A DNA stretch of 64,000 bases from a virus (lineage: Duplodnaviria; Caudoviricetes). Of this stretch, positions 858 through 52,688 are shown piece after piece. Below the pieces are notes generated by a model. It had not been told where the DNA came from, ran no database searches, and was given only the letters and a program-made list of their open reading frames with translations. The DNA lies in IMG/VR virus record IMGVR_UViG_2690315872_000001, positions 1-64,000 of that record. One strand, 5' to 3'. Position 1 is the first letter of the stretch. Every line of letters begins with the position of its first letter. A program made the position numbers and the translations under genes.

Positions 858-1116
858 CCGGGTCATTCAGGACGTCCGGATCCGCTGGCTGGAACCCACC
901 GACGCGGCCGCCCTGCGCGCCATCGACCACGTGATCCGCAAGGGCCGCACCAGCCCCGCCGGGCGCACCACCCGCTACACCCTCGGCACCCGCCACGTGC
1001 ACGTCCTGGACGGCGTGGCCACCAAGGCGTACGTCACCGGGCAGAAGCGCGTCCGGACACTCTCCGCCGCCGCCTGGTTCGAAGGCCGCGAGCGCGCCCA
1101 CTGGAGAAGAAGATGA
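844..1116 (+). CDS. Hypothetical protein
   Basis: GTG at 844 in the 745..1116 frame. Stop overlaps the next ATG. Confidence 0.55.
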   Translation: MIITDRVIQDVRIRWLEPTDAAALRAIDHVIRKGRTSPAGRTTRYTLGTRHVHVLDGVATKAYVTGQKRVRTLSAAAWFEGRERAHWRRR

Positions 1117-1580
1117 CCCCAGCACCCACTGACCTGCTTGCCCACATCAGCCTGAAGACCGACGGCAAACGCGGTGAACTTCTCATCGACGGGCAGCCTG
1201 CCCGGGGCGCGACACACGTCCACCTCGACGCGCCCGGCGGTGAACTACCCCGCGTGACCGTCACGCAGGTCGCCGGGCACGTCCTGTTCCAGGGCGAGGC
1301 CATCATCCGCCGCGTCACGGAGATCTTCGGTCGGCACGGCGCCCAGCTGACCGAGCAGGCGCCGGACACCGACTGGGAACGACGCGCGCAGGCCCTCCTC
1401 GCCGACATTCTGCCCGTCATCCGCGACGGCCTCGATAACGCCAACGAGGTCATCGCTGGCCTGAACGTCGCGCTGCCCGGCCTGCCCGAAGGGCACACCG
1501 CCAGCTTCCTGTACGTCCTGCACCCGCCCATGGCCAATCAGCCCGCCCAGATCAGCCTGGTCGAGGCCGCCCATGACTGA
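1113..1580 (+). CDS. Hypothetical protein
   Basis: ATGA coupling, upstream GGAGAAG. Confidence 0.7.
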   Translation: MTPAPTDLLAHISLKTDGKRGELLIDGQPARGATHVHLDAPGGELPRVTVTQVAGHVLFQGEAIIRRVTEIFGRHGAQLTEQAPDTDWERRAQALLADILPVIRDGLDNANEVIAGLNVALPGLPEGHTASFLYVLHPPMANQPAQISLVEAAHD

Positions 1581-1968
1581 GCTGACCCTGTTCGCCCTGA
1601 GCGTCTACATATGGGGTTTCATCCGCGTGCTGCGCCACCCCGAGCTGCCCCGTTCCGGAGAGCGCATCGCGAAGAGCCTGACCGGCGCGGGCATCGGCGT
1701 GGAGGGCCGCGCCCTGCTGCGCGCGCTGAACGCCACGGCCTTCATGACGCCAGTCGTGCTGCTCGCAGAGGCGGGCCTGCGCGTGGCTGGACTGTCCAGC
1801 GCCCCCGCCTGGCTCCTGCTGGCGCTGTACGCGCAGTGGGTGTACGCACTGCACGTCACCCCCACCCCAGGCAGGCAGAGTCAGGTGTACACCGTGACGA
1901 TCGTGCTGCTGAGCGCGGGCCTGCTGGGCGAGATCGTGCAGTTCATCGACCTGATGAGGGCCCAGTGA
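1573..1968 (+). CDS. Small multi-pass membrane protein
   Basis: Three to four hydrophobic segments. Confidence 0.7.
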   Translation: MTELTLFALSVYIWGFIRVLRHPELPRSGERIAKSLTGAGIGVEGRALLRALNATAFMTPVVLLAEAGLRVAGLSSAPAWLLLALYAQWVYALHVTPTPGRQSQVYTVTIVLLSAGLLGEIVQFIDLMRAQ

Positions 1969-2147
1969 CGTCACAGGTCGGCGCCCAGGCCGACCTCGTC
2001 ACCATCCTCCGCTGCGGCACCCGCGCCGCCATGACGCCCGCGCAGATCGAGGCGGCCGTCGCCCGGCAGGTCGCCAGCAGTCAACGCCTCGCCGGGGAGG
2101 ACCTGACCCAGGCGGACATCCTGCGGATCCTGCGAGGCCCCAGGTGA
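1965..2147 (+). CDS. Hypothetical protein
   Basis: GTGA coupling at 1965. Confidence 0.5.
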   Translation: MTSQVGAQADLVTILRCGTRAAMTPAQIEAAVARQVASSQRLAGEDLTQADILRILRGPR

Positions 2148-2223
2148 CCCGCGCCCTCCTCCGCGCCCTGCTGGCCCGCCTCAACCGCCGCCCCACCCGC
2201 ACACCCGCATCCCGGAGGCGCTG

Positions 2224-2505
2224 ATGACGACCGACCAGGAACTGAACGCCCGCCGCGACCTCGTCGCCTACCTCGCCGCTGCGCATCCCACCCTCAGCGA
2301 CATGCGCGCCATCTGGACCGCCGCCGGGGGGCACGTCAGCGACATGCCGGACGTCGGCGATAGCCCCATCTCCCGCTGGTGGACCGTGCTGACCCGCGTC
2401 GAAGCTGGGCGCCTCCACCCTGAGCGGTTCGCGCAGGCCATCCATGACGCCCACCCCGGCGACCCGACAGCCGCACTCGACACGCTGGGCTGGTGTGCCC
2501 GTTGA
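2224..2505 (+). CDS. Stand-alone effector-associated domain (EAD1)-like protein
   Basis: GGAGG RBS. LVAYLAAAHP...IWTAAGG...P...SPISRWWTVL...EAGRL...AIHDAHPGDP resembles the EAD1 pattern by eye. Confidence 0.55.
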   Translation: MTTDQELNARRDLVAYLAAAHPTLSDMRAIWTAAGGHVSDMPDVGDSPISRWWTVLTRVEAGRLHPERFAQAIHDAHPGDPTAALDTLGWCAR

Positions 2506-2708
2506 CCGCCCCCACTGCCGCCTGCCTCATCTGCGGGACGTCCATTCCCGCGCGGCCCTCCGGGCGTGACCTGCGCGCCCGCCTGTGCCACCCGTGCCTC
2601 ACCGCCCCCGGCCTGCGCACCCATCCCCGGTACAGGGCGTTGAGCGGTTCGGTCAACGCCCTGTACGAACCCATCGAGGACCCCCATGAACGACCCGCAA
2701 GCGAATGA
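2502..2708 (+). CDS. Small CxxC...CxxC zinc-finger protein
   Basis: CLIC...CHPC. TTGA coupling at 2502. Confidence 0.55.
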   Translation: MTAPTAACLICGTSIPARPSGRDLRARLCHPCLTAPGLRTHPRYRALSGSVNALYEPIEDPHERPASE

Positions 2709-3093
2709 ATTCTGGCAGGCCGTCGACGAAGGTCACCGGCGACTCGGTCGGGGTCCGGACGACCCGGCGCTTCTCGTCATGACGCCCGCCACGCATGCCC
2801 ACCTGACTCAGCTGGCCGCCGCCCGCTCGATCAACCTCGACAGGATTGAGGTGGAGACCGATCCCGCCGCCCCTGCGGACGGCGTGATGATCGTCACGCA
2901 CCGGCAGATGAAGGCGTACCGCGCGGCCCGCAGCCGGGGCGCCGCCCCTGCCCTCGCCTGCTACGAAGGTGCGTTCCGGCAGGCCGTTCCCAACGCCCCT
3001 GATCACGATTGGACGCTCGTGGGCACGCCGACAGAGCCTACCGAGCCCAGCGCCATCCGCCCGTCCCGCCGCCGCTTTCCCATCCCCCGCTGA
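2686..3093 (+). CDS. Hypothetical protein
   Basis: GAGGA RBS, operon position. Confidence 0.6.
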   Translation: MNDPQANEFWQAVDEGHRRLGRGPDDPALLVMTPATHAHLTQLAAARSINLDRIEVETDPAAPADGVMIVTHRQMKAYRAARSRGAAPALACYEGAFRQAVPNAPDHDWTLVGTPTEPTEPSAIRPSRRRFPIPR

Positions 3094-3101
3094 GGACCCC
3101 C

Positions 3102-3518
3102 ATGCTGAACCTCGACCCGCGCCCGCTGTTCGCCCGCTGGCAGGCCCGCCGCGCCCTGGCCCGCATCAGCCCATACCACCGCGTCCTGCACGCCCTGGCG
3201 ACCGGCTGCACGTACCCGCCCAGCATCGCCGCGCTGTACCGCCTGACCCTCACCGAGGTGGACGACGAGCTGCGCGCCCTGGAAATCCAGGGACTCGTTC
3301 GGCCCCAGCGGTCCCGCCCGGGCGCGCTGGTCGCCACCTGCACCCGGTACGTCCTCACGGGCACCGGTGACCGGCACGCGGCGTACGCCCTCCTGCCGGA
3401 CCTCGCGCCCGGCACGCCCGTCGGCTGGCAGGGCGAGCACCTGTGCATCAAGCCCGGTCAGCACCCGCTGCCCGTCGCGCAGTTCACGCCCCTCGCCGCC
3501 CTGCTGGAGCGCGCGTGA
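3102..3518 (+). CDS. Hypothetical protein with possible winged helix
   Basis: GAGGA RBS before ATG 3102. Contains IAALYRLTLTEVDDELRALEIQGLV. Confidence 0.6.
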   Translation: MLNLDPRPLFARWQARRALARISPYHRVLHALATGCTYPPSIAALYRLTLTEVDDELRALEIQGLVRPQRSRPGALVATCTRYVLTGTGDRHAAYALLPDLAPGTPVGWQGEHLCIKPGQHPLPVAQFTPLAALLERA

Positions 3519-9686: not shown

Positions 9687-9763
9687 GTCTCTCTAGCCCA
9701 ACCGGCAGAGGCAGCCGCCTCAAACGCGGCCCAGTGTGGGTTCGACCCCCACGAGAGACACCA
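9687..9763 (+). tRNA. tRNA-Leu(CAA) with a short variable loop
   Basis: GTCTCTC/GAGAGAC acceptor, GCCGC-CTCAAAC-GCGGC anticodon arm, GTGGG-TTCGACC-CCCAC T arm, A-CCA end. 77 nt. Confidence 0.9.
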
Positions 9764-10045: not shown

Positions 10046-11008
10046 GTGCCCACACCCAAAAAACCCAAGGCCAAAGCCCGGGCCGCCAAGGCCCCCACCA
10101 CACCAGAACCGCAGAAGCCGGGCACAGCCCAGCCCGCACCCAAGACCCCCAAGACCCGCACCGCCGAGTACCTCGCCAAGACCCGCAGCAAGCCGCAGGT
10201 CACGAACGGCGGGAACCCCTTGCAGAATGCTCAGGTGCAGGAACCCCTTGCAGAATCTGGGGAGCGGCAGCGGAAGCCGAGGGAGCCGGAGCGGATCTGT
10301 GGGGCGGAGGGGAAGCGGGGTGCTGGGCCGTGCCGTCATCCGGCGGGCTTCCGGACGGATCACAAGGGTTCGGGGCGGTGTTACCTGCATGGTGGGTTGA
10401 CGCCGGCGCCGACGGGGCGGTACTCGTCGGTTGAGCGGCCGCGCGTGCGGGAGTTGCTGGAGCGGTTCGAGTCTGATCCGGATCCGTTGAACCTGCTGGC
10501 TGAGGTGCAGCTGTTGCGGGCGCTGCTGCTGGACTTCATCAACCGGTTCGATGAGCAGGACCGCATGTTGACCCGCTGGAACATGAGCTTCGAGAAGTCG
10601 TTTCAGTCGGACTGGGCGGATTGGTGGCGCACGATGCGTGCGGACGCCCTGGAGCGCGAGGATGACCTGAGTGCGGAGTTGGTGGAGCGCATGCCGGATC
10701 CGATGAATTACCTGCCGAGTAAGCCGCTGCGCATGGCGGACATCACGGATGTGTCGCGCCTGATCAAGGAAGTCGGGGCGATGGTGGACCGGATCCGGAA
10801 GGGTCAGCAGGAGAGCACGTTCAGCATGGACGTCATCAATCGCCTGTGGGTGTTGATGGGTGGTCACGTGACGGACGCAGCGATGGAGGTGATTGAGAAC
10901 GATGACATTCGGAGCGCTCTCCTCACCGCCGTGGAAAGCCGGTGGGGAACGATCAGCCTCGCAGAACTCGCCAGCCGCCGCGCTGAGGCAGGCGCGGAAG
11001 CAGGCTGA
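10046..11008 (+). CDS. terS: Terminase small subunit (HGGxSTG-like Cys/His motif)
   Basis: CGAEGKRGAGPC...GRCYLHGG. Directly upstream of terL. AGGAGG RBS 8 nt before GTG 10046. Confidence 0.7.
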   Translation: MPTPKKPKAKARAAKAPTTPEPQKPGTAQPAPKTPKTRTAEYLAKTRSKPQVTNGGNPLQNAQVQEPLAESGERQRKPREPERICGAEGKRGAGPCRHPAGFRTDHKGSGRCYLHGGLTPAPTGRYSSVERPRVRELLERFESDPDPLNLLAEVQLLRALLLDFINRFDEQDRMLTRWNMSFEKSFQSDWADWWRTMRADALEREDDLSAELVERMPDPMNYLPSKPLRMADITDVSRLIKEVGAMVDRIRKGQQESTFSMDVINRLWVLMGGHVTDAAMEVIENDDIRSALLTAVESRWGTISLAELASRRAEAGAEAG

Positions 11009-12656
11009 GCGGTTCACGCAGTACCAGACGAACCCCCTGGGGTACCTGCAGGACATCCTGAACATTCACCCGTGGAAGGGCCGGAACGGGAAGCGCGGGC
11101 AGTACGAGCTGGTCCAGGACATCGGTGAGAGTGTGCGCCGCCAGCTGGAAGGGGACGAGTATGCCCCGAAGATCTTCCGGGTGGACAGCGCGCACGGCGT
11201 CGGGAAGACGTACATCGGCGCGGGTCTCGTGAACTGGTTCTTCGATGCGTTCACGCCGGGCATCACGATCACCACGGCGCCCACGAAGGACCAAGTGGAA
11301 CTGCTGCTCTGGAAGGACATCAAGAGCCAGCGCAAAGGCCGCGGCCTGCCGGGGCGCGTCCTGCCGGAAACGCCCCGCATGGTGAAGGCCGAGAATCACT
11401 GGGCGATCGGCCGCACGACCAGCGACGCGGGCGGTCAGGGTACGGCGCGCGCGCAGGGGCAACACGCGAAATTCATGTTCTTCGTGGTGGACGAAGCGGA
11501 AGGCGTTCCGGCGTACCAGTTCGACGCGATCAACGCCATGATGACCGGCGGCGTCGTGATGATCTGGCTGCTGATCGCCAACCCGCAGACCCGCACGAGC
11601 GCGTTCCACAAGCTCGGGAAGCAACCGGGCGTGCAGAACTACCAGTTCAGCCTGCTGGACTTCCCGAACGTCGTCGAGGGCGTGGATGTCGTGCCGGGCG
11701 GCACGAGCCGCGCGTGGTTGAACAAGATGGTCGCCAAGCACTGCGATCCGGTACTCGCGCACGACCCGGACCGCCTGACGTTCCAATTGGACTGGGACGT
11801 GCTGGTGGAAGGAGAGGACACGGTCTTCCCGGCCGGGATGATCTTCGCGCCGAACGCGGAGTTTCAGTTCCGTGCGCTGGGCGTCCCACCTGCCGCGAAC
11901 GCCGGGGACGCCATGATCAGCACGGCCCGGTTCGAGCAGGCCGTCGCGCGAGTGCCGGATCCGGAAGCGGACCGGCACATGGCGCAGATTGGCGTGGACG
12001 CCGCGCGGTTCGGGTCGGACGCCGGGAACGTCTGGCTGTACCACGGGCGGGTGCTGACGCGCGAAGCGGAACTGCGGCAGGTGGACGACTTCATGTACGC
12101 CGCCGAGATGAAACGCGCCGCGTTGAAAGCCATCCGCGCCGGTGCGAAGACCGTCAGTTTCCGTGTGGACGGCACTGGCGGGTACGGCGGCGGGAAGATC
12201 GACATTGCCAAGGCGGACGCGGAACTTCACGAGGCCGCGCAGGCCGCCGGGTGCACCCTCGTCTTCCACGAGGTGCAGTTCAATCACGTCCCGCACGACC
12301 CTGAACGGTACTACGACCGCGCGACGGAACTGTACGGCACCAGCAACGACCAGCTGCTCGTCGCCAGTATCCCCAACCCGCCCGAGCACCTGCAGGCTGA
12401 CCTGACCGAGCGCCGCACGCGGTTCATGGCGAAGAACGCCGGTGAGCACCGCCGCATCGTCCGGAAACTTGAAAGCAAGGACGATTTCAAGGCCCGCGTC
12501 CGGCCCGCCCGCAGCCCCGACGACGGGGACGGCGCGGCCCTCAGCCTCGCGGACGAAGTGATCTTCACGCCGCCCCCGCAGGACACCCCGCAGGTCACGC
12601 TCAGCGACCTGAGTAACATCCGCAACGCCTTCAACCGCCGCCTGAAAGGAAGGTGA
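10893..12656 (+). CDS. terL: Terminase large subunit
   Basis: Walker A SAHGVGKT, Walker B VVDEAEG, IANP coupling motif, nuclease GVDAARFGSD and SPDDGD. Exact start uncertain. Confidence 0.93.
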   Translation: MRTMTFGALSSPPWKAGGERSASQNSPAAALRQARKQAERFTQYQTNPLGYLQDILNIHPWKGRNGKRGQYELVQDIGESVRRQLEGDEYAPKIFRVDSAHGVGKTYIGAGLVNWFFDAFTPGITITTAPTKDQVELLLWKDIKSQRKGRGLPGRVLPETPRMVKAENHWAIGRTTSDAGGQGTARAQGQHAKFMFFVVDEAEGVPAYQFDAINAMMTGGVVMIWLLIANPQTRTSAFHKLGKQPGVQNYQFSLLDFPNVVEGVDVVPGGTSRAWLNKMVAKHCDPVLAHDPDRLTFQLDWDVLVEGEDTVFPAGMIFAPNAEFQFRALGVPPAANAGDAMISTARFEQAVARVPDPEADRHMAQIGVDAARFGSDAGNVWLYHGRVLTREAELRQVDDFMYAAEMKRAALKAIRAGAKTVSFRVDGTGGYGGGKIDIAKADAELHEAAQAAGCTLVFHEVQFNHVPHDPERYYDRATELYGTSNDQLLVASIPNPPEHLQADLTERRTRFMAKNAGEHRRIVRKLESKDDFKARVRPARSPDDGDGAALSLADEVIFTPPPQDTPQVTLSDLSNIRNAFNRRLKGR

Positions 12657-25824: not shown

Positions 25825-28800
25825 ATGTCCACTCGCGTCGGTGCCGCGCACCTCGACCTGACCGTCCTCACCGCCCCCGCCCGGCGCGAACTGACCGCGT
25901 TTGCAGCCAATGCCCGCGCGCTGCTCACCGGCCTGTCCCGCCCCGTCAAGATCGAGGTGAAGGCCGACGCGGCCCAGGTGCGCACCCAGGTGGACGCCGT
26001 GAAGGCCGAGTTCACGAACCTCCAGAACAGCCTGAAGAACGTCCTGAAGGTCGACGTGAGTGCCCTGAAGAGCGTGATCAGCAAGATCGGTAAGCAGATC
26101 ACGGACCTGACGGCTCTGGAGACGAAACTCCGCGCCCTGGGGAATGGCGGTAGTGGGGGCGGTGGTACGGGGGCCGGTGGCGGCAGTCCCGGTGTCAACA
26201 ACCAGTACGCCGCGCAGCTGCGAGGCCTGCAGGCCGATCTGAAGAACAGCGCCCTGAGTACCGCGCAGTTCGAACTGGCCACCCGCAACCTCAAGACCAC
26301 CATCGACAGTGAAATCGCGTCCCTGCGCGCCGCCGGTCCGCTCACGCAGGCCCAGCAGGCCCGTCTGGACGCCCTGCGCGTCAGTAGCGCCCAGGCCGGA
26401 ACGGCCCTCAAGGGTCTCGCCGACCAGCAGGCCCGCGCGACCCGTGAAGCTGCCAGGGGTGCCGAGCGCACCCAGGTGGACGGCGTGCGTCGCCTCGCCA
26501 CGGAACTCCAGAACGCCCAGAGCCGCTACGACCGGGGCGCGCTGAGTCTGCGCGGGTACCTGCGGGAGATGCAGCGCATCCAGGCGGCCGGCAGCGGCAT
26601 GGCGTCCGGCCTGACCGCCGGGAGTCGCGCCGCGACGGACCTGGAACGCGTGATGGGTGGCCTCAACCGCGCCACGCGCGGATTGAATGATGCTTCCATA
26701 ACCAAGATTCGGACCGACCTCGCTGCGGCCAGGGCGGAGTTCGAGCGGGCTACGGCGGCGGCGGGAAGGTTTGGCGACAAGCGCGCTGCCATCCAGGCGT
26801 ACGAGGCGAGCATGCGCAGCCTCGAAACGCGCATCCGAAGCGTTGGTGAACGGGCCACGATCACCGCCCGGCAGACTGGCGAACTGGGCCGCATCAGTAC
26901 GAACATCCGCAGCAGCCTGAACAGCCTGAACAGTAGTCCCAGTGGTGTAGGTCTCGCGGGTAGCATCATGGCAGCCCTTAAGCAGCTGCCGCAATTCGCT
27001 GCCGCCGCCGGGGGCAGCCTGGGTGCAGCAGCAGCGCAGGCAACCTCCCTGAGTGGGGGCCTCATGGCTGCTGGAGGCGCCGCAGCTAAGGTTAACCCCA
27101 TACTTGCGGCACTCGTTGCGGTTGTCGCTGGTCTCGTCGCAGTGCTGGCAAGCAGTATCGGGCCAGCCGCGCAGTTCCAGCAGACGCTGACCGACATCAA
27201 GGCCCTGACCCAGCCGACGACAGCCGAACTGGAGCGTCTACGTCAGGCCACATTCGACGTCGGAAAGCCCCTCGGGGTGGGCGCGCGTGACGCGGCCGCC
27301 GCCGTCCTGGAACTGAACAAGGCAGGCCTGTCCGCGAAGGACGCCGTGGGCGGTGGGCTGAAGGGCGCGCTGGATCTTGCTGGGGCTGCGGGAATTAGCG
27401 CGGCTGAGGGCGCCACCATCGCCGTGAGCGCCATGACCGCGTTCGGTCTGCAGGCGCAGCAACTGCCGGGCGTCGCCGACGTGTTCGCCAACTTCGCGAA
27501 CAAAACATTCCTCGGAGCCCAGGACCTGTCCCAGGCGATTGCCGCCGTGGGTCCGGTCGCGCGGGACGCTGGGATCGGCCTCGAGCAGTTCGCCGGGCTG
27601 ATGGCCACCCTCGCGCAGGGCGGCTTCAAGAACATGAGTGACGCGGGCACGTCACTCAAGACCATGCTGCTGAGCCTCACGGCACCGAGCAGTGAGGCGG
27701 CGAAAGCGCTGAGGGCGGTCAATGTCAGCGCCTTCGACAGCAAGGGGCAGACACGACCCCTCAATGCCGTGCTTGCTGATCTGCGCGCCAAGCTTGTGCA
27801 GCTCACGCCTGAAGCTCAAAAGGGCGTCCTTAAACAAATTTTTGGTACCGACGCGATTCGGGCCGCGCAAATCCTGCTGCGTGAAGGGCCCCGCGCCATC
27901 AACGCCAATACCGAAGCGATGCGGAAACAGGGCGAAGCGGCCCGCGTCGCGAAGGAACGACTCGACTCCCTCCAGGGCGCCGGGAAGCAGTTCGGCGCGG
28001 CATTCGAACAGCTGAAAATTCAGATCGGCACGCCGTTCCTCGCGGCGCTGACTGGCATCGTACGGGGCGCCACTGGTGCCGTGAACGCCCTGACCAGCCT
28101 GAACGACCAGGCTGCCAAGGGGCAGGGGCCGCTGGCCGGACTGCGTGACCTCGCGCAGGCCCTCGGCAGCACTTTCGGCAGCGTGTTCGCGGGCATTGCG
28201 GCCCTGTGGAATTCGCTCCTCGCGCCGGTCTTCCGGGCGCTGGGTGCGGTGGTCGGCGTGGTCCTCCAGGGGATCGTCACCGGCCTGACCGCGTTCTTCA
28301 ACCTCGCTAGCGCTGTGTTCCAGGGAGTCGGGACGGCCATCCAGGCACTGCTGGGCGTGTTCGGTACGAGCGGAGCGGGCATCCAGTCCAGCGCCACCGG
28401 CATGGCCGAGACAGTCGTGCAGGGCAGCGCCATCATGCGCGCCGCGCTCGTCGCGCTGGGCCGCTTCACCGCCACGCTTCCCGAAGTGTTCAAGCTCGCC
28501 GGGACGGGCATCGGGACAGTCCTAGGCGGCGTGACCCGTGTCATGCAGGGCTTCGGGCAGGGCGTCCGCGCCGTGTTCGTCGCTGCTGGCGGGTACGTGG
28601 GTGCTTTCGCCTCTGCCGTTGGGCGGAATGTCCAGGGCATCGGACTCATCCTGAAAGGCCTCACTGGAATCTTCGGCGCGCTCCTCCTGGCCGTCCGGAA
28701 CGCGTTCGTCGAGAAGGCCGGAGTGGTCCTTGCAGCGGGCGTACGCCTGTACGGGCAGTTCACAGACGGTGTCGCTAACGTCCTCCAGCAGGGCGCGGCA

Positions 28801-31800
28801 TACTTCTTCCGGTACGTCGTGCAGCCCGTCCAGGCGGGCGCGGACTTCCTCCTGACCGCGTACAACCGCGTAAGCGGCATCGTCGCCGGGGCCGCCACCC
28901 GCATCGGTCAGGTGCTCGCCCCGATTGGGAGCGTCCTGAAAGCCCTGGGGCTGAGTATCGGCGACACGCTCGCCGGGGTCGCGAAAGCCGCTGTGGATAC
29001 GTCTGTGGGCATTGTGGACCGCTTCGCTGGATCGGCGCGCGCGGCATACGAGCGTGCCCAAGCGGCCGCTCAAGCTGCCGCGACCAGCACAGCCTCCAGC
29101 ACCGCCACTGGTGTCGCCAATGCCCTCACGGGCGCTAGCGGCGCCCTCGGCGATTTCGTGAAAGACAATGGTGCCGGTAGTGCCATGACGGCCGCGCTGG
29201 GTGACGTGCAGGCTGGATTCAAGGCGGTCAGTTCTTCCGGCCAGCAGCTTCAAAAGGACATTGCCGGTGTTACGGGCGTCCTCAAGAATGATCTGACTGG
29301 GGCAAGTGGGACGGCCGCCGCTGGACTCGGAGAGATCCGAACCGGCGCGCAGCTGACTGGTGCCGCCGTTGATCTTGTGAAGCGCAACGTGCAGGACGCC
29401 GTGCAGGGGTTCACGCAGGACGTGAAGACCCTGGGGCAGACGGCGAAAGCTACCGCTGCGGCCGTGGGCACAATCAAACCGCCCGCTGTGATGCCGACGG
29501 GCACCAAGACGCTGGATGACATCGGACTTGGTGACGATAAAGGTGGCAAGAAAGGTGGCGCGAAGGGCGCCAAGGGCAACTCGAAAGTCACCGCTGCTGA
29601 CCTGAATGCCATGGACGAGTACAAACGGCGTCTCGATGGGATGACCCTCGCGGAACTTCGCAACGAGAAGGCCCTTCAGACTCGTCTGGGTAACACCAAG
29701 AAGCTCGCTGCTGTTCTCGCCGAGATCAAGCAGAAGGAGGCTGAGGCGACGCGTCAAGTGCAGTTGAGCGGCGCGGCTCTGACGAAGTACAAGGAGGCGT
29801 TGCGAGCGAAGAGCGCCGAGCAGCTCAAGGCGCTTGAAGCGGATGCGCGCGCTAAGAACCTCGGGCCACAACTGAACGCCATCCTGGCTGAGCAGAAGCG
29901 GCGTACTGAGGCGAAAGCGGCTGCTGATCGGAAGGCCTCACAGGAGGCCCAGAAGCACGCCACCGTCGCGGCCAACCTGCGGCGGGAAGTCGGGCAGCTC
30001 AACGACCGCTTCAAGCTCCAGGTGCAGCAGGGCAAAGTTACCGCTGAGAGCCTGCTGGCCTATCGTCAGGCGCTGGCTGACGCGAAGGCCAAAGTCGACC
30101 AGTTGCCGCCCGCTTTACGGGCCAGCGTGACCGCCCTGGTGACGCAAGGTCAAACCCTGGCCGCTCAAGGCCAGACGCTCGTCAACCACCGCAGCGAAGT
30201 TGAGAAGCTCCGAGCGGAAGTTGATAAGTGGACCCTGGCTGCGCTGGAGAACGCCCGCGCCCGGGTCATGGCCAACGGCGGCGACAAAGACAAGCTGGCG
30301 CTGCTGGACGCCGAGATTGCCAAGCGTAAACAGCTCAGTGACGCTCAGGCCGCGCAAGTCCTGACCGAAAGCCAACTCTCCCAGGCGACTGCCAACCAGG
30401 AAGGCGCGGAAGGCGAGTACGAGAATCGAAAGGCCGCAGCTAAGGGCAACCTGTCGGAACTGCTCGCCATCGAAATCCAACTCGGACAGAAGGTGCAGGC
30501 CGCTCGTGATAAGGCCGCACGGGCCGCAGCGGCGAATGAAGAGCGACAGATCCGGGAGAGGTACGGCAAGCTGCTTGGTCTTGAGGGGCTGACGGCTCAG
30601 CGACGGAAGGAACTGGAAAGCGCGCGTGACCGTGAGCTGACGGCCAATGGGACTCGTCTGACCAACGCCCTGGCGAAGAACGCGACGGACCGCGCCGTGG
30701 CGGAAGAGGACGCCCGCCGCAACCTGAACGCCACACTGGAAGGCCTGGACCGCGAAGTGGCGGGGCGTATCAGAGCGAACCTGCTCGCCGACCTCGAACA
30801 GCGCACCCGCGACGTCGAGGCGCAGCAGCAGGAGGAGCTGGACGCCGAGGGGCTCACCGAGGCGCAGAAGCTGGAGATCCGCAAGCGGTTCCAGCCACAG
30901 CTGCTTGCCGCCAAGCAATCCGAATTGGACCAGGTGCGCGCGATCGAGGAAGTTGGTGAGCAGGAACGGTACCGCGCGGCTCTTGCCGAGGCGGAGCAGC
31001 AGGGCATTCTCGATCAACGTCGTCTTCAGGCTGATGGGTCGTACCTCACGGTACGTCAACTGCTGGAGAAAGATCACCGCGCCGAAATGGACCGTATCGG
31101 TCGCGAGGCTCAGCGGTCGCTGCGTGACTACGAGCTGGAGGTTAAGCGTGATACCGGCAGGCAGATTGTCGCCGCCGACAAGGAGACCAGCGCTCAGCTG
31201 AAGGACGAGGCTGATGACCGCATTCAGGCACTGGAAGACAATCTTGACGACCAGAGTGCCGCGCAGCGCGCGGCAGCCCGGACGGTGCTCCAAGCGTGGC
31301 GGGTCACCTACGCTGCAATGGGTAAGAGCGGCGAGGAGGCCGTCAAACAGATCGACGCGGCGCTGAGGAAGCTCGACGCCATCTCAGTGAAAATTCGCCA
31401 GAATGCCGGAGCGCTCGTTGAAGATCCTGCCGCACTGCTGTCGTCTGGCGCGAAGGATGTCGCCGCTGTTGGTAAGCCGGATGATGCTGACAGCGCGCGG
31501 GCCAAGGCTGAATCTCAGTTCGATCAGTTGGCGGAGACCTACTCGGCCAAGCTTGCCGTACTGAAAGACGCCCTGGCGGCGTTTGCTGAGAAGAAGGACC
31601 AGGACCTCACTCCGAATGAGCGCCTAGTTCGTGATGGGCTGCTTGCCACCCAGGCGGCGTACACCACTCTGCTCAGCAACGTGAGAGCTGCGGCGGCCAA
31701 GGCCGGAGCGGATGCCGCTCAGGCCTTCACTCAGGCTCAGAAGGACCAGGCAGCCGAGAGCGCCCTGGCACTCGTCGAAGCCCAGCATGCCCTGGCGGAA

Positions 31801-33069
31801 GCGGAAGGTCGGGACGATGGACCGGCCTACAAAGCAGGCATCGCGGTGGCCCTGGCCTACTGGCGCGGCCGTCTGGCTGGACTGAAGGCGGCCGCGCAGG
31901 AAGGTACGCCCGAGTACCTGAACGTCCTGAAGACCATCACCGACCTGGAAGGGAAGATCGCGGCGACCGGCAACCCCGTCGGGGACCGCCTCAGCATGCT
32001 CGCCGGACTGATCGGGAAGGGCGGGAAACTCCAGGGCACCATCAGCGCCGGACTGGACGGACTGGCCGCGTACCTGAAGAACGGAGGTGGCAAGGGCGGC
32101 CTGATCGCCGGGGCGCAGGCCCTGGTCAGCGGACTCGCCGGAGTGTTCAAGACCGGAGACGAGGACATCGATAAGGTCATCGACACGTTCGTCAGTGGTG
32201 TGCAGGCCACGCTGGGCGCCCTCGCGAAGGGCGACTGGATCGGCGCGCTCATCGCCGGGGTGACCACGGTCGTCACCACCATCATCGACATCTTCACCGG
32301 CGGCGCGAACAGCGCCAAGAAAGCCGCGCAGCAGATCAGCGACGCCACGAAGGACGTGAAGTTCTTCGACCTCAGCAAGTACGCGAAGGTCGAGTCGCGC
32401 GGAGGGTTCTGGGGGTTCCTGGGCTTCAAGAAAGCCTCGATCGACCAGGAAGCCGTGGACATCGCCAAGAGTCTCGGCGACGCGCTGTACAGCGCCATCA
32501 GCGGCGCGATGCTCAAGGGCATCAAGGAAGGGAAACGGTCCTTCGGTGAACTCGGCCTGGACGTCCGCGAAGGCCTCGGCCAGCAGATCCTCCAGGGTCT
32601 GATCGACGGGTTCCTCAAGGGCGCGATCATGCAGGGCATCCTGCAGCCGTTCCTCGACAAGTACATCGCCGCCATGAAAAGCGGGAACGCCCAGGCGCTC
32701 GCGGAAGCCGCGAACGGCCTCCAGGGTGCCATCGCGCAGGGGAACAGCGCCCTCGCGCAGTTCTACGAGACCGTCCTCGTGCCCGCCGCCGAGCAGATGG
32801 GGCAGTTCGGCACGGACGGCCAGAGCGCCGGCGGGACCGGCAGCGCCGCCCTCGACCTCGGACTGGCCGCCGCGCCCGCCGCCGTGGCCGCCGCACCCGC
32901 GTACATGGTCGAGCACACGACTGCGCTGACGGAACTGACTCCCGTCCTCCGTGACGTCACGCGAGTCTTCGGACGCCTTGCCGATGACGGCCTGCACGTC
33001 GAGGCGGAAAGCACCGTCACCGTCAACGCACCCACCAGCGACCTGCGCGCATACGCCACCCGCTCCTGA
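25825..33069 (+). CDS. Tail tape measure protein (2414 aa) with a TP901-type core
   Basis: Very long Ala-rich helical ORF. Core motifs include AGTSLKTML and QIFGTDA. Confidence 0.95.
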   Translation: MSTRVGAAHLDLTVLTAPARRELTAFAANARALLTGLSRPVKIEVKADAAQVRTQVDAVKAEFTNLQNSLKNVLKVDVSALKSVISKIGKQITDLTALETKLRALGNGGSGGGGTGAGGGSPGVNNQYAAQLRGLQADLKNSALSTAQFELATRNLKTTIDSEIASLRAAGPLTQAQQARLDALRVSSAQAGTALKGLADQQARATREAARGAERTQVDGVRRLATELQNAQSRYDRGALSLRGYLREMQRIQAAGSGMASGLTAGSRAATDLERVMGGLNRATRGLNDASITKIRTDLAAARAEFERATAAAGRFGDKRAAIQAYEASMRSLETRIRSVGERATITARQTGELGRISTNIRSSLNSLNSSPSGVGLAGSIMAALKQLPQFAAAAGGSLGAAAAQATSLSGGLMAAGGAAAKVNPILAALVAVVAGLVAVLASSIGPAAQFQQTLTDIKALTQPTTAELERLRQATFDVGKPLGVGARDAAAAVLELNKAGLSAKDAVGGGLKGALDLAGAAGISAAEGATIAVSAMTAFGLQAQQLPGVADVFANFANKTFLGAQDLSQAIAAVGPVARDAGIGLEQFAGLMATLAQGGFKNMSDAGTSLKTMLLSLTAPSSEAAKALRAVNVSAFDSKGQTRPLNAVLADLRAKLVQLTPEAQKGVLKQIFGTDAIRAAQILLREGPRAINANTEAMRKQGEAARVAKERLDSLQGAGKQFGAAFEQLKIQIGTPFLAALTGIVRGATGAVNALTSLNDQAAKGQGPLAGLRDLAQALGSTFGSVFAGIAALWNSLLAPVFRALGAVVGVVLQGIVTGLTAFFNLASAVFQGVGTAIQALLGVFGTSGAGIQSSATGMAETVVQGSAIMRAALVALGRFTATLPEVFKLAGTGIGTVLGGVTRVMQGFGQGVRAVFVAAGGYVGAFASAVGRNVQGIGLILKGLTGIFGALLLAVRNAFVEKAGVVLAAGVRLYGQFTDGVANVLQQGAAYFFRYVVQPVQAGADFLLTAYNRVSGIVAGAATRIGQVLAPIGSVLKALGLSIGDTLAGVAKAAVDTSVGIVDRFAGSARAAYERAQAAAQAAATSTASSTATGVANALTGASGALGDFVKDNGAGSAMTAALGDVQAGFKAVSSSGQQLQKDIAGVTGVLKNDLTGASGTAAAGLGEIRTGAQLTGAAVDLVKRNVQDAVQGFTQDVKTLGQTAKATAAAVGTIKPPAVMPTGTKTLDDIGLGDDKGGKKGGAKGAKGNSKVTAADLNAMDEYKRRLDGMTLAELRNEKALQTRLGNTKKLAAVLAEIKQKEAEATRQVQLSGAALTKYKEALRAKSAEQLKALEADARAKNLGPQLNAILAEQKRRTEAKAAADRKASQEAQKHATVAANLRREVGQLNDRFKLQVQQGKVTAESLLAYRQALADAKAKVDQLPPALRASVTALVTQGQTLAAQGQTLVNHRSEVEKLRAEVDKWTLAALENARARVMANGGDKDKLALLDAEIAKRKQLSDAQAAQVLTESQLSQATANQEGAEGEYENRKAAAKGNLSELLAIEIQLGQKVQAARDKAARAAAANEERQIRERYGKLLGLEGLTAQRRKELESARDRELTANGTRLTNALAKNATDRAVAEEDARRNLNATLEGLDREVAGRIRANLLADLEQRTRDVEAQQQEELDAEGLTEAQKLEIRKRFQPQLLAAKQSELDQVRAIEEVGEQERYRAALAEAEQQGILDQRRLQADGSYLTVRQLLEKDHRAEMDRIGREAQRSLRDYELEVKRDTGRQIVAADKETSAQLKDEADDRIQALEDNLDDQSAAQRAAARTVLQAWRVTYAAMGKSGEEAVKQIDAALRKLDAISVKIRQNAGALVEDPAALLSSGAKDVAAVGKPDDADSARAKAESQFDQLAETYSAKLAVLKDALAAFAEKKDQDLTPNERLVRDGLLATQAAYTTLLSNVRAAAAKAGADAAQAFTQAQKDQAAESALALVEAQHALAEAEGRDDGPAYKAGIAVALAYWRGRLAGLKAAAQEGTPEYLNVLKTITDLEGKIAATGNPVGDRLSMLAGLIGKGGKLQGTISAGLDGLAAYLKNGGGKGGLIAGAQALVSGLAGVFKTGDEDIDKVIDTFVSGVQATLGALAKGDWIGALIAGVTTVVTTIIDIFTGGANSAKKAAQQISDATKDVKFFDLSKYAKVESRGGFWGFLGFKKASIDQEAVDIAKSLGDALYSAISGAMLKGIKEGKRSFGELGLDVREGLGQQILQGLIDGFLKGAIMQGILQPFLDKYIAAMKSGNAQALAEAANGLQGAIAQGNSALAQFYETVLVPAAEQMGQFGTDGQSAGGTGSAALDLGLAAAPAAVAAAPAYMVEHTTALTELTPVLRDVTRVFGRLADDGLHVEAESTVTVNAPTSDLRAYATRS

Positions 33070-43332: not shown

Positions 43333-43363
43333 CATGGGGCGACCTCGTCATGAGAGGAGACCC

Positions 43364-46096
43364 ATGGACCACGCAGCATTCGCCCGATTCTGGAGAAACG
43401 AGATCCCAAGAGCTGCTGAACGCGACAGCTATCAGAATCACTGGCGTGGTCTGTGTGAGATCGTGCGGCACCCTTTTCCCGGGGTGGACCCGAACTACAA
43501 ATTCGAGCGGAAAGTGCAGAAGGTCGGTACGAAGGACACGGGATTCGCCGACGTGTACAAAGCCAAGCATTTCATTGCGGAGTACAAGCGCCCCGGCCGG
43601 GACCTGGGGGCCGCTCGCCAGCAGGCGGCGCTATACGCATGGGAGCTCGGCAACCCACCCCTGCTGATCACCTCTGACTTCGCGCGGATTGAGGTGAACA
43701 CGGCGTTCACTGGGACCAGCCCGAAAACTTACCTGATTGGCCTGGACGACATCGAGCACAACCAGGTGATCAAGGGCGGCGACCTCACGGCGCTGGAGAT
43801 CCTGAACTCCGCTTTTCACGCGCCGGAAAACTTGGATCCGCGGCACTTCCGCGAACGGCTCACGACGACCGCCACGCGGCAGGTCGGGCAGGTCGCACTC
43901 CGCATGGGCCAGCGTGAGGGCAAGGCGCGGGCGGCGCACATGATGATGCGCCTCGTGTTCGCCCTCTTCGCGGAGGACGTCACCTTGCTCGAGCGCGGTC
44001 TCGTGACCCGGGTGCTCGAACGCAGCCGGGCCCACCCGGAGAACAGTCAGGCGTACTTCCAGGAACTGTTCCGCGCGATGAAGGGCGGTGGTGAGTTCTG
44101 GGGGCACGACATCCAGCACTTCAACGGCGGCCTGTTCGACGAGGCAGACGCTCTGGCCATCACGTCCGACGAGGCGGCCGCGCTGGTGGAGGCCGCGCAG
44201 CTGGACTGGTCAGAAGTGGAACCTAGCATCTTCGGCACGCTGTTCGAGAACGGCCTCGATGAGGACACCCGCAGCCGCCGCGGCGCGCATTACACCAGCG
44301 TGACGGACATTGAGCGCGTCGTCGACCGCGTCGTGATGGAACCCCTCTGGGCGGAATGGGACGCGCTGAGGCACGGGTTGCAGAAGATGAAGCGTCAGCA
44401 GCGAATCGAACAGCTGTTCGCGTTCCAGGACCGCGTGCGGGGCGTGCGGGTGCTGGATCCGGCCTGCGGGAGCGGCAACTTCCTGTTCGTGGCCCTGAAG
44501 AAGCTGCTCGACCTGGAGTACCAGATCCGTTCAGCCGTCACCATGAACGGCGTCGGCGAATTCGAGATGCCTCCACTCGTGCACCCCAAGCAGATGCTGG
44601 GCCTGGAAATCGAGCCGTTCGCGCACGAGCTGGCCAGCATCACGCTGTGGATGGGGTACATCCAGTGGAAACGCGCGCACGGTGGGCACTGGGAAACGCC
44701 GATCCTGCAGCACCTGAACAACATCCAGAACCGGGACGCGCTGCTCAACCCGGACGGCACCGAGGCGCAGTGGCCGGACGCGGAGTTCATCGTCGGGAAC
44801 CCGCCCTTCCTGGGTGACAAGATGATGCGCGCCCAGCTGGGCGGTGAGTACACCAACACCCTGCGGGGCGTCTACGCTGACCGGCTGCCTGCGCAGAGTG
44901 ACCTCGTGTGCTACTGGCCGGAGAAGGCGCGGGCCATGGTGGAATCGGGCGTTACGCGCCGGGCGGGTTTCGTGGCAACGAACAGCATCCGTGGCGGCAA
45001 GAATCGGGTGGTCCTTGATCGCATCAAGGCAACCGGTGACATCTTCATGGCGTGGCCTGATGAACCCTGGGAGCAGAACGGCGCGGCCGTCCGCGTCAGC
45101 CTCTTCGCGTTCGACAAGGGCATGGAAACCCAGAAGACGGTGAATGACCAGTTTGTCAGTGACATCACCGCCGACCTGACCTCGCGTATCGACGTGAAAT
45201 CCGCAGTGAAGCTCTCGGAGAACGGAGGGCGGAGCTTCATCGGTACACAGAAGGGCGGTGCCTTCGATATTCCTGCTGAATTGGCGCAGCAGTGGATCAA
45301 CGCCCCGAACCCGGATGGTGTGGAAAACGCGGATGTGCTGAAGCCCTGGGTGAACGGCATGGACCTGACGCGCCGGCCCAGCAACCGGTGGATCATCGAC
45401 TTCGCCCTGATGAGCGAGATGGAGGCGTCACGGTATCTAATGCCTATGGCGTACGTCGTTCAGCACATCCAGCCGGTTAAGAGTCAGAATCGTCGGGAGA
45501 ATAGGGCACGCCACTGGTGGCGGTTTGATGAGCCAGCTTCGAACTTGCGTGCCGGGCTCGCTGGCTTGACGCGCTTCATTGGCATTCCAAGGGTGGCCAA
45601 GCACCTTCTGCCGGTCTGGCTGCCCGAGGGCACACTGCCGGACTCACAGGTGGTGTCAATCGCGCGGGATGATGACTTCACATTCGGCGTCTTGGCCTCC
45701 ACAACACATCGCTGCTGGGCCCGGGCACAGGGCACGTACATGGGTGTTGGTAATGATCTGCGGTATACCCCCTCTACCTGCTTCGAGACCTTCCCATTCC
45801 CGGATCCAGCCCCTGAGCAGCGTGCAGACATCGAAAAGTGGGCGCGGTTCGTGGTGACGATGCGGGAGCACCTGCTGGCGCAGGACACGAAGGCGACGCT
45901 GACAGGCCTGTACAACGACGTGGTCCGCCTGCGCGCCGAGCCGGACGCCACGCATCCCGTCACGGCGCTCGTGAAGGCCCACGCGGACCTAGACAAGGCG
46001 GTGGCCGCCGCGTACGGCTGGGACTGGCCGCTGAGCGAGGACGATGTGCTCGCGCGACTACTGGCGCTGAACCTAGAGCGGGCCGCGACAGCCTGA
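43364..46096 (+). CDS. MmeI-family (type IIL) fused restriction endonuclease / m6A methyltransferase
   Basis: GFADVYK...IAEYK nuclease motif, IFGTLFE, GAHYT, VLDPACGSGNFL, VGNPPFLG, RYTPSTCFETFPFP. GAGGAG RBS. Confidence 0.92.
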   Translation: MDHAAFARFWRNEIPRAAERDSYQNHWRGLCEIVRHPFPGVDPNYKFERKVQKVGTKDTGFADVYKAKHFIAEYKRPGRDLGAARQQAALYAWELGNPPLLITSDFARIEVNTAFTGTSPKTYLIGLDDIEHNQVIKGGDLTALEILNSAFHAPENLDPRHFRERLTTTATRQVGQVALRMGQREGKARAAHMMMRLVFALFAEDVTLLERGLVTRVLERSRAHPENSQAYFQELFRAMKGGGEFWGHDIQHFNGGLFDEADALAITSDEAAALVEAAQLDWSEVEPSIFGTLFENGLDEDTRSRRGAHYTSVTDIERVVDRVVMEPLWAEWDALRHGLQKMKRQQRIEQLFAFQDRVRGVRVLDPACGSGNFLFVALKKLLDLEYQIRSAVTMNGVGEFEMPPLVHPKQMLGLEIEPFAHELASITLWMGYIQWKRAHGGHWETPILQHLNNIQNRDALLNPDGTEAQWPDAEFIVGNPPFLGDKMMRAQLGGEYTNTLRGVYADRLPAQSDLVCYWPEKARAMVESGVTRRAGFVATNSIRGGKNRVVLDRIKATGDIFMAWPDEPWEQNGAAVRVSLFAFDKGMETQKTVNDQFVSDITADLTSRIDVKSAVKLSENGGRSFIGTQKGGAFDIPAELAQQWINAPNPDGVENADVLKPWVNGMDLTRRPSNRWIIDFALMSEMEASRYLMPMAYVVQHIQPVKSQNRRENRARHWWRFDEPASNLRAGLAGLTRFIGIPRVAKHLLPVWLPEGTLPDSQVVSIARDDDFTFGVLASTTHRCWARAQGTYMGVGNDLRYTPSTCFETFPFPDPAPEQRADIEKWARFVVTMREHLLAQDTKATLTGLYNDVVRLRAEPDATHPVTALVKAHADLDKAVAAAYGWDWPLSEDDVLARLLALNLERAATA

Positions 46097-50293: not shown

Positions 50294-50397
50294 CGCGGAT
50301 CGCCTCCGCTCTCCTGGGTCGCCCTGCCCCCTGGGGCGGGCGGCCCTCACGGTTTTTCAACGGACGGCTGTGTCTCTCAGGGCCTACCCTGAGGCCC

Positions 50398-52671: not shown

Positions 52672-52688
52672 GCACTGACGTCAGTCCG
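52671..52688. repeat. 18-bp palindrome copy 7 (CGCACTGACGTCAGTCCG), overlapping the parB stop codon
   Basis: One mismatch to consensus. Confidence 0.85.

What the first reader, a model, noticed from the sequence alone, without database searches (positions are those of the whole stretch)
2224..2505. Phage-encoded stand-alone EAD1-like domain: possible decoy for host conflict systems
Seen: a 93-aa ORF whose pattern (L...LA..HP....R.I...AG....P....P...W..VL.....G.......I....PGDP) looks like effector-associated domain 1. Known: EADs are adaptor domains proposed to couple effectors to NTPase or peptidase cores by homotypic interaction in bacterial conflict systems. They are usually fused to other domains. 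Inference: a free EAD among early accessory genes could titrate and disable such a system, which would be an unusual anti-defence mechanism.
Basis: inference. Interest (0 to 1): 0.7.

Follow-up and report, generated by a model that had tools for sequence, protein, structure and literature searches.

The report
Free EAD1 adaptor on Deinococcus phage-plasmid
A Deinococcus phage-plasmid carries a small gene that encodes only a death-domain-like docking module (EAD1) that bacteria normally fuse to immune sensors and suicide enzymes, so it may jam that wiring, as one phage CARD-only protein is known to do, but this is untested.

Summary
Window 2224-2505 (+) is a real 93-aa gene. It has a GGAGG ribosome-binding site, coding-type GC3, and 5 synonymous against 0 non-synonymous differences to a relative over 53 codons. 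It matches Pfam EAD1 above the curated cut-off (26.2 against 24.2 bits). Its AlphaFold2 model (pLDDT 88.9) is a helical bundle, and 47 of its 50 best structural matches are CARD, Death, DED or Pyrin domains.

The gene stands alone, in a 2.2-kb variable island of the lytic-direction operon of a 91-kb phage-plasmid. The host genome has no second EAD1, GASH or DO-GTPase1. In the genus, 3 of 110 other genomes carry EAD1. In each it sits in a GAP1-N1/DO-GTPase/GASH operon, on a small effector of the same EAD1 subclade as the phage protein.

The decoy reading is plausible but unproven (about 0.4). [quoted passage not shown] So the mechanism is not new in kind; it is a new variant using another adaptor family and probably another target. 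Earlier notes of this scan reported free EAD1 and EAD11 genes in other phages.

The parts
2214..2218 (+). GGAGG ribosome-binding site, 5 nt before the ATG
   Evidence: Read directly from the sequence.
2224..2505 (+). Gene for the 93-aa stand-alone EAD1 (Death-like fold) protein, P0001
   Evidence: Pfam PF19955 26.2 bits against cut-off 24.2. AF2 pLDDT 88.9, five helices plus a short turn. 47 of the 50 best VIA-align matches are Death-fold domains, best Apaf-1 CARD with Z 8.1. GC3 0.86. 5 synonymous and 0 non-synonymous differences to L015.
2502..2708 (+). Downstream 68-aa CxxC...CxxC (zinc-ribbon-like) ORF whose TTG start overlaps the EAD1 stop (TTGA), suggesting translational coupling
   Evidence: A 68-aa protein of exactly this sequence is on record from NCBI on a contig of 91,291 bp (P0009). 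GC3 0.83. No Pfam, NCBIfam or PADLOC family. In one relative the two ORFs are a single 161-aa protein (P0015).
1113..3093 (+). Variable accessory island of six small co-directional ORFs (155, 131, 60, 93 [EAD1], 68 and 135 aa), between genes conserved in related elements
   Evidence: tblastn of C6 proteins against the related 88.7-kb element of G064 (portal 77-79%, Ant 86% identical): the flanking genes 429-857 and 3009-3518 match, and none of the six island ORFs does, there or in G010 or G029. orf135 was found in 0 of 110 congeners. The same island is in metagenome contig L015.

Best explanation
The gene encodes an adaptor-only protein: one EAD1 domain (a six-helix, Death-like bundle) with no enzyme, sensor or membrane part. 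It sits in a variable accessory island of the long lytic-direction operon of a Deinococcus phage-plasmid, between the anti-repressor/nuclease genes and the terminase.

Most likely (inferred, not shown) it is a competitive decoy. In EAD1-wired conflict systems, an EAD1 on the core component is thought to dock the EAD1 of the effector. In this genus that system is the GAP1-N1/DO-GTPase/GASH operon. Its small effector starts with an EAD1, and its GAP1 ends in an EAD1-like stretch. A free phage EAD1 of the same subclade would occupy one of these docking surfaces early in infection. That would uncouple the effector from the sensor, as phage pCARD does to CARD-gasdermin systems and as poxviral pyrin-only proteins do in animals.

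The resident host lacks such a system, so the gene would widen the range of strains the phage can infect and would not act on its current lysogen.

Shown here: gene, domain family, fold, stand-alone state, phage-plasmid context, accessory status, and presence of cognate systems in congeners. Inferred: binding, inhibition, and time of expression.
For: Identity:
- Pfam EAD1 is above the cut-off.
- The AF2 model has pLDDT 88.9 and pTM 0.78.
- In VIA-align against 48,161 chains, 47 of the 50 best entries are CARD/DD/DED/PYD domains spanning residues 1-93. They include viral FLIP MC159 (Z 5.5) and a bacterial death-like domain, 8ss1 (Z 5.1); the best is Apaf-1 CARD, Z 8.1, rmsd 3.5 over 84 residues.

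Adaptor-only:
- All real relatives found are 88-96 aa: P0002, P0003, P0005 and P0007, plus five cluster members of 93-94 aa.

Phage setting:
- Terminase, portal, protease, capsid and a 2414-aa tape measure.
- Two ParB-like genes, two integrases and Ant.
- No promoter- or terminator-like site on the + strand between 1 and 8448 (weak).

Accessory gene:
- It is absent from related elements whose portals are 72-79% identical.

Candidate targets:
- EAD1 occurs in 3 of 110 other genomes of the genus.
- GASH occurs in exactly the same three genomes.
- In the two operons scanned (G050, G062) the order is EAD1-tail, GASH, DO-GTPase2, DO-GTPase1, GAP1-N1; in G027 only EAD1-tail and GASH were scanned.
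- The C-termini of all three GAP1 proteins carry a weak EAD1-like W..GG...W stretch, 11-13 bits with my own profile, E 0.2-0.8.
- This is the architecture Kaur et al. 2020 describe (section 28).

Same subclade:
- In a tree of 30 EAD1 domains of the phylum, the five stand-alone proteins form one group (88/79).
- That group nests (92/94) with the Deinococcus GAP1-system EAD1s and with SIR2- and TPR-linked EAD1s of two related genera.

Precedent:
- Phage CARD-only protein pCARD reduces gasdermin cleavage and defence (PMC10312443, passages read).

Lead:
- The nearest ESM Atlas clusters are 64-89-aa EAD1/EAD7 proteins. Three of them have Uroviricota as their commonest taxon.
Against: - No binding or inhibition test was possible.
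- The host genome has no EAD1 partner: the only other hit (17 bits) lies in a DUF5691 protein. It also has no GASH, DO-GTPase1, EAD7 or EAD4. However, 44,419 bases of the genome are withheld, and the EAD7 and EAD4 searches rang in no control genome.
- Cognate systems are rare in the genus (3 of 110), and nothing shows that this phage meets those strains.
- GAP1-N1 systems have never been shown to stop phages. PADLOC has no model for them, and only Kaur et al. 2020 mentions them in the library searched.
- The GAP1 C-terminal EAD1 is below significance, and its AF2 model is poor (pLDDT 62.8).
- Foldseek found nothing at E <= 0.001 in PDB or BFVD.
- VIA Z scores of 5-8 are in the range the tool calls common for helical bundles.
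- The tree covers only this phylum, and few of its branches are strongly supported.
- The time of expression is unknown.
- No relative was found in cultured phages, IMG/VR contigs or plasmids.
Confidence: 0.42

Rival explanations
1. A two-part phage protein. The EAD1 works with the translationally coupled zinc-ribbon-like 68-aa protein. It would be a docking handle that brings a phage module to an EAD1-bearing host protein, to hijack or retarget it, and not a passive decoy.
For: The start and stop codons overlap as TTGA. The gene pair is kept in the relatives for which both products are on record (P0013 and P0012, both listed with a 78,760-bp contig). One cluster member (P0015, 161 aa) is an in-frame fusion of both, and it still matches EAD1 (24.3 bits).
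Against: The fusion is seen once among 10 cluster members, on a single Logan contig. The distant relative P0005 is followed by an unrelated 84-aa ORF without cysteine pairs. The zinc-ribbon ORF has no family match. No EAD1 partner exists in this host.
Confidence: 0.2
2. A component of a defence or exclusion system carried by the phage-plasmid itself. The EAD1 would couple an unrecognised effector in the island (for example the four-helix membrane protein at 1573-1968) to an unrecognised sensor, protecting the lysogen from other phages.
For: Prophages and phage-plasmids often carry defence genes in variable islands (general knowledge). All six island ORFs are of unknown family. By Kaur et al. 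2020, EADs are components of conflict systems.
Against: The defining second EAD1 copy is missing from the element and from the whole genome, both with the Pfam model and with a lineage-specific profile run at maximum sensitivity. No NTPase, peptidase or nuclease domain lies in the island. There are no PADLOC hits. The gene is oriented with, and embedded in, the lytic-direction operon.
Confidence: 0.12
3. A captured fragment of a host EAD1-effector gene that persists without function.
For: Its nearest EAD1 relatives in the phylum are host domains fused to SIR2, TPR or a short tail. The family is tiny.
Against: It has its own strong ribosome-binding site and ATG at the domain boundary. It keeps the same length in relatives at 31%, 57% and 85-92% identity. 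It shows 5 synonymous and 0 non-synonymous differences in 53 codons. The fold is predicted with high confidence.
Confidence: 0.1
4. Not an EAD1 at all: a generic small helical protein, for example an HTH regulator, that passes the Pfam threshold by chance.
For: The score is only 2 bits over the cut-off. Foldseek's weak list includes XRE-type repressors. There is no NCBIfam or PHROG match.
Against: Three relatives scanned here also match EAD1 and nothing else, two of them above the cut-off, and a fourth (P0007) carries a precomputed EAD1 annotation. It shares the W-x3-GG...W core with host EAD1s. 47 of the 50 best full-length structural matches are Death-fold domains. The nearest ESM Atlas clusters are EAD1/EAD7.
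Confidence: 0.05

Closest known systems
EAD1, effector-associated domain 1 (Pfam PF19955; Kaur, Burroughs, Iyer and Aravind 2020, PMC7159879)
   Same: Profile match above the cut-off. About 90 all-helical residues with no catalytic features. The same W-x3-GG...W core as EAD1s of Deinococcus GAP1-N1 systems and of SIR2/TPR-linked proteins of related genera.
   Different: It is not fused to a core component or an effector. There is no cognate copy in the same genome. It is encoded by a phage-plasmid, not a chromosomal conflict island.
pCARD, the CARD-only protein of Acinetobacter phage 133 (Wein et al. 2023, PMC10312443)
   Same: A phage-encoded small protein that is only a Death-fold adaptor domain, so the same decoy logic could apply.
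   Different: Another Death-fold family (CARD-like against EAD1). pCARD is 141 aa and lies next to rIIAB. Its target (CARD-protease-gasdermin) and its activity are shown by experiment. Here the target is inferred, and the likely system (GAP1-N1 GTPase) is itself uncharacterised.
Viral pyrin-only and DED-only decoys of animal viruses (poxvirus pyrin-only proteins, as cited in PMC10312443; vFLIP MC159, PDB 2f1s)
   Same: Adaptor-only Death-fold proteins that block homotypic assembly. MC159 is among the structural matches (Z 5.5).
   Different: Eukaryotic viruses and targets. No sequence relationship was shown.
GAP1-N1 GTPase-centric conflict system (GAP1, GASH, two DO-GTPases, EAD1-linked effector; Kaur et al. 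2020, section 28)
   Same: It supplies the only other EAD1 domains in the genus, and these belong to the same EAD1 subclade.
   Different: The phage gene is not in such an operon, and the host genome has no GASH or DO-GTPase1.

Membership tests
EAD1 (PF19955) | Match to the family profile at or above Pfam's gathering score | tested here: met
   26.2 bits against 24.2, E 1.1e-5, 74 of 90 profile positions. 25.1 bits in the six-frame genome scan.
EAD1 (PF19955) | Small, non-enzymatic, all-alpha domain (Kaur 2020, section 30), Death-like bundle | tested here: met
   AF2 pLDDT 88.9, helices at 3-20, 24-33, 48-60, 66-76 and 82-88. 47 of the 50 top VIA-align entries are Death-fold. Z 5-8 is middling for helical bundles, and Foldseek gave nothing significant.
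EAD1 (PF19955) | Fused to a core component (VMAP, iSTAND, Ubl, GAP1) or to an effector or signalling domain | tested here: not met
   The 93-aa ORF is bounded by stops, with no other domain. Relatives are 88-96 aa. The search among longer proteins found none, which is weak evidence. One exception is the 161-aa fusion with a zinc-ribbon-like ORF on one contig.
EAD1 (PF19955) | A cognate EAD1 copy on a core component in the same genome or operon | tested here: not met
   With the Pfam model the only other hit is 17 bits, inside a DUF5691 protein. My own lineage profile with filters off found nothing at E <= 0.8 in the genome. 44,419 bases are withheld.
EAD1 (PF19955) | Homotypic EAD-EAD binding (proposed, never shown) | not testable with these tools
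Phage Death-fold-only decoys (pCARD type) | Encoded by a phage, and a single Death-fold domain with nothing else | tested here: met
   Phage structural and plasmid-maintenance genes on the same contig. Single-domain protein.
Phage Death-fold-only decoys (pCARD type) | The host range includes a defence system wired by the same domain | tested here: inconclusive
   Absent from the resident host. Present in 3 of 110 congeners. Whether the phage infects those species is unknown.
Phage Death-fold-only decoys (pCARD type) | Inhibits the system when co-expressed or carried by a phage | not testable with these tools
   Needs bench work.
GAP1-N1 GTPase-centric system (as a component) | Lies in an operon with GASH, DO-GTPase1/2 and GAP1 | tested here: not met
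   The neighbours have no such families. The genome has no GASH or DO-GTPase1.

The most novel reading that the evidence does not exclude
Free EAD1 proteins are a phage counter-defence. They jam EAD1-wired systems, here the never-tested GAP1-N1/DO-GTPase/GASH operons of Deinococcus. This would be the first functional evidence that these computationally predicted systems are antiphage. It would also show that adaptor-only Death-fold decoys are a general phage strategy beyond the single CARD case, possibly with the coupled zinc-ribbon protein as a second, active part.
Probability: 0.35. Interest if true: 0.7.

Novelty: new variant of a known kind. Interest (0 to 1): 0.55.

Why it matters
EAD-wired conflict systems (vWA-MoxR ternary, iSTAND, GAP1 GTPase) are known only from comparative genomics. 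In the library searched, only Kaur et al. 2020 names the GAP1-N1 components, and PADLOC has no model for them.

A phage gene that is nothing but the docking domain is indirect evidence that phages meet these systems. It is also a ready reagent to probe them: a 93-aa protein, a genus with laboratory strains, a resident phage-plasmid, and three congeners with a compact five-gene target operon.

It would also extend the one proven phage Death-fold decoy (pCARD) to a second adaptor family. If the gene turns out to do something else, the case remains a clear exception to the published architectural rule that an EAD always has a fused partner and a cognate copy.

Tried and rejected
- RNA evidence: no RNA holder was listed.
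- Foldseek against PDB and BFVD: nothing at E <= 0.001.
- PHROGs, NCBIfam and PADLOC: no family for P0001.
- tblastn of P0001, P0007 and P0005 against 50,697 phage records: no match at E <= 1.
- tblastn against plasmids: only two chance 25-residue hits in Corynebacterium relaxases.
- IMG/VR and GTDB genome contigs by pattern scan: none. Records near the window's genome may be left out of these collections.
- phmmer against 1.84 billion representatives: 4 hits, of which 2 (P0004, P0006) are tandem-repeat artefacts and were discarded.
- Search among longer proteins for fused relatives: none, which is weak evidence.
- The weak second EAD1 hit in the host chromosome (17 bits) is a DUF5691 protein and was rejected as chance.
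- AF2 of the GAP1 C-terminus: pLDDT 62.8, too poor for a fold search, so the EAD1 nature of that stretch rests on a sub-threshold profile match only.
- Resemblance between the phage zinc-ribbon ORF and the cysteine-rich N-terminus of DO-GTPase2 was considered. The cysteine spacings differ, and the idea was dropped.
- A guessed accession for EAD6 turned out to be EAD4, so EAD6 was not searched.
- Supplements of the papers were not seen. Figure 1-source data 1 of Kaur et al. 2020 may list stand-alone or phage EAD1s.

Full report
**1. The object**

Window 2224-2505 (+) is an ATG-started ORF of 93 codons.
- GGAGG lies 5 nt upstream, and no in-frame start lies further upstream.
- GC at codon positions 1/2/3 is 0.71/0.56/0.86, the pattern of real genes on this 69% GC contig. 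The shifted frames do not show it.
- A near-identical metagenome contig (L015) has the same gene order. Over the 53 codons it covers, it differs at 5 synonymous and 0 non-synonymous codons, while most neighbouring genes carry 3 to 8 non-synonymous differences.

The gene is real and under purifying selection, though the numbers are small.

**2. Domain and fold**

Pfam gives one family, EAD1 (PF19955): 26.2 bits against a gathering score of 24.2, covering 74 of 90 profile positions. PHROGs, NCBIfam and PADLOC give nothing.

An AlphaFold2 model built on five sequences has pLDDT 88.9 and pTM 0.78, with helices at 3-20, 24-33, 48-60, 66-76 and 82-88 and a short turn at 38-40.

Foldseek found nothing significant in PDB or BFVD.

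The exhaustive VIA-align search of 48,161 chains gave a very uniform list:
- 47 of the 50 best entries are CARD, Death, DED or Pyrin domains aligned over nearly the whole protein.
- The best are Apaf-1 CARD (Z 8.1, rmsd 3.5, 84 residues), the CARD-CARD disk (Z 7.2) and NLRC4 CARD (Z 7.0).
- The list includes viral FLIP MC159 (Z 5.5) and a bacterial death-like domain (Z 5.1).
- The three exceptions are two de novo designs and an entry titled 'unknown protein 4'.

The tool warns that Z below 8 to 13 is common for helical bundles. I rely on the uniformity of the list and on the independent profile match, not on Z alone.

**3. It stands alone**

All real relatives are about the same length:
- P0002: 94 aa, 92% identical.
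- P0003: 96 aa, 85% identical, from Deinococcus sp. 6GRE01, named an EAD1-containing protein by NCBI.
- P0007: 94 aa, 57-59% identical.
- P0005: 88 aa, 31-32% identical.
- Five further 93-94-aa members of the 90% cluster, seen on contigs of up to 91 kb.

Two phmmer hits were tandem-repeat artefacts. A search among longer proteins found no fused relative, which is weak evidence.

There is one exception. P0015 (161 aa, one contig) is an in-frame fusion with the next ORF. That next ORF (2502-2708, 68 aa, CxxC-17-CxxC) has a TTG start overlapping the EAD1 stop as TTGA. A protein of exactly this sequence (P0009) is on record from NCBI on a 91,291-bp contig.

**4. Context**

The window is the first 64 kb of a 91,291-bp contig of a seven-contig, 4.09-Mb genome. 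The contig carries:
- large terminase, portal, head protease, major capsid, a 2414-aa tape measure and a tail fibre;
- two ParB-like proteins, two tyrosine integrases and an Ant anti-repressor;
- a VRR-NUC nuclease and a tRNA-Leu.

I read it as a phage-plasmid. A related element of similar size (88.7 kb) is in congener G064.

The EAD1 gene lies in the co-directional run that starts at Ant (83.8 kb), continues across the contig ends if the element is circular (not shown: no terminal overlap), and reaches the terminase at 10.9 kb. Its neighbours are a LuxR-type HTH gene and a calcineurin-like phosphoesterase. No promoter- or terminator-like site lies on the + strand before 8448 (weak).

In G064, Ant (86%), VRR-NUC (69%), the genes at 429-857 and 3009-3518, the phosphoesterase and the portal (77-79%) are all conserved. 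The six ORFs from 1113 to 3093, EAD1 included, have no match there or in G010 or G029. orf135 was found in 0 of 110 congeners. The gene is therefore part of a variable accessory island.

**5. Is there a partner?**

In the host genome:
- The Pfam EAD1 model finds only one other stretch, 17 bits inside a DUF5691 protein, which I treat as chance.
- A profile I built from the stand-alone proteins and the Deinococcus EAD1s, run without filters on all six-frame ORFs, finds nothing better than E 0.83.
- GASH, DO-GTPase1, EAD7 and EAD4 are absent. 44,419 bases of the genome are withheld, and the EAD7 and EAD4 searches rang in no control genome.

In the genus:
- 4 of 111 genomes have EAD1, counting this one.
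- In G027, G050 and G062 the domain heads a 174-184-aa protein, and the next gene is a GASH protein. In G050 and G062, the two operons scanned further, DO-GTPase2, DO-GTPase1 and a GAP1-N1 protein follow.
- GASH occurs in exactly those three genomes.
- The last 70 or so residues of all three GAP1 proteins give a sub-threshold match to my EAD1 profile, with the W..GG...W core (11-13 bits). The AF2 model of that stretch is poor (pLDDT 62.8), so this point is inconclusive.

The layout is the one Kaur et al. 2020 describe: GAP1 with a C-terminal EAD1, plus an EAD1-tagged effector in the operon, thought to dock by homotypic contact (section 28).

**6. Relationship**

In the phylum, 12 of 364 genomes have EAD1, and 31 of 33 matches lie in open frames of 177 aa or more.

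I built a maximum-likelihood tree of 30 domains. Four rows were dropped: two with internal stops, one sub-threshold row, and G050, lost because its extended translation began with a stop.
- The five stand-alone proteins form one group (88/79).
- That group nests (92/94, not starred) with G062, G027, G118 and G129.
- It lies apart from the large paralogous family of G263/G264.

G118 and G129 carry SIR2-EAD1, EAD1-TPR and EAD1-SIR2 proteins. So the phage domain resembles the EAD1s of its host's lineage, which fits mimicry or capture. The tree holds only this phylum, and many of its branches are weak.

**7. Mechanism**

The best-supported reading is an adaptor-only competitor of EAD1 docking. The precedent is experimental. 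Wein et al. (PMC10312443; abstract and passages read) found a 141-aa CARD-only protein in Acinetobacter phage 133. It lowers gasdermin cleavage and defence when co-expressed or knocked into T4, and the authors compare it with poxviral pyrin-only proteins.

The ESM Atlas gives a lead that short EAD1/EAD7 proteins are common in phages: three of the nearest clusters, of 64-79 aa, have Uroviricota as the commonest taxon.

Earlier notes of this scan reported a free tandem EAD1 and a free EAD11 in other uncultured phages (e1-5915615 and e1-5886395). These are unchecked AI notes, and I count them as leads only.

Against the decoy reading: nothing shows binding, the resident host has no target, the candidate target system is rare and untested, and the time of expression is unknown.

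**8. Rivals**

- A two-part protein with the coupled zinc-ribbon ORF, docking to hijack a host protein (0.2).
- A component of a phage-plasmid-borne defence (0.12).
- An inert captured fragment (0.1).
- A false domain call (0.05).

**9. Novelty**

- Papers holding 'EAD1' and 'phage': 9 (listing seen). Besides the two Aravind-group papers, six use EAD1 for lysin or maize terms by their titles, and one matches only through 'EAD10' (passage read).
- Papers holding 'effector-associated domain' and 'phage': 11, of which 10 were listed. One passage was read, and none of the listed titles or abstract starts concerns a phage-borne EAD.
- The main text of the EVADES anti-defence catalogue has no 'CARD', 'death', 'adaptor' or 'EAD'. 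Its supplements were not seen.

So I found no description of a phage-borne free EAD1 in print. The principle itself is published, which makes this a new variant of a known kind.

Noticed in passing
window 1-64000 and L009/L010 (G000:C6:64001-91291): The 91,291-bp contig looks like a phage-plasmid: a siphovirus-type structural module with a 2414-aa tape measure (25825-33069), two ParB-like genes (52681-53706 and C6 67160-69547), two tyrosine integrases (49295-50350 and C6 76644-77798), Ant (C6 83766-84554) and VRR-NUC (C6 90255-90704). Most of its proteins have no family.
   Followed up: partly
P0015; window 2502-2505: One relative, on a single 12.4-kb Logan contig, encodes EAD1 and the downstream CxxC...CxxC ORF as one 161-aa protein. 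In the window the two ORFs overlap as TTGA. This is either a true fusion variant or a sequencing or assembly error. The DNA could not be fetched.
   Followed up: partly
L006 9941-15953 (+), L007 10076-4154 (-), L008 10053-16002 (+): Three Deinococcus species carry a compact GAP1-N1 operon. In G050 and G062 the scanned order is EAD1-tail, GASH, DO-GTPase2, DO-GTPase1, GAP1-N1; in G027 only EAD1-tail and GASH were scanned. The 80-90-residue tail after the EAD1 has no Pfam family and ends in a hydrophobic or amphipathic stretch, so it may be a small membrane-active effector. The G050 copy lies next to a DDE transposase.
   Followed up: partly
window 10893-12656, against L044 and L045: The portals of related elements are 72-79% identical. 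The C6 large terminase, however, has no tblastn match in the G064 locus and only 24% identity in G010, which suggests a swap of the terminase module.
   Followed up: no
window 9687-9763: tRNA-Leu (anticodon CAA) just upstream of the terminase region.
   Followed up: no
window 43334-46096: A 920-aa protein with a weak DNA-methyltransferase-like middle part (phrog_16674) and a strong match of its C-terminal half to the unknown family phrog_25988.
   Followed up: no
L002 (G000:C1:732580-735813): A host DUF5691 protein lies next to a leucine-rich-repeat-variant protein. Its 17-bit EAD1 hit is a chance match.
   Followed up: yes
L023 (G118) and L022 (G129): The nearest non-Deinococcus EAD1s are on SIR2-like effectors. 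In G118, a SIR2-EAD1 gene is followed directly by an EAD1-TPR gene, a textbook adjacent EAD1 pair.
   Followed up: partly
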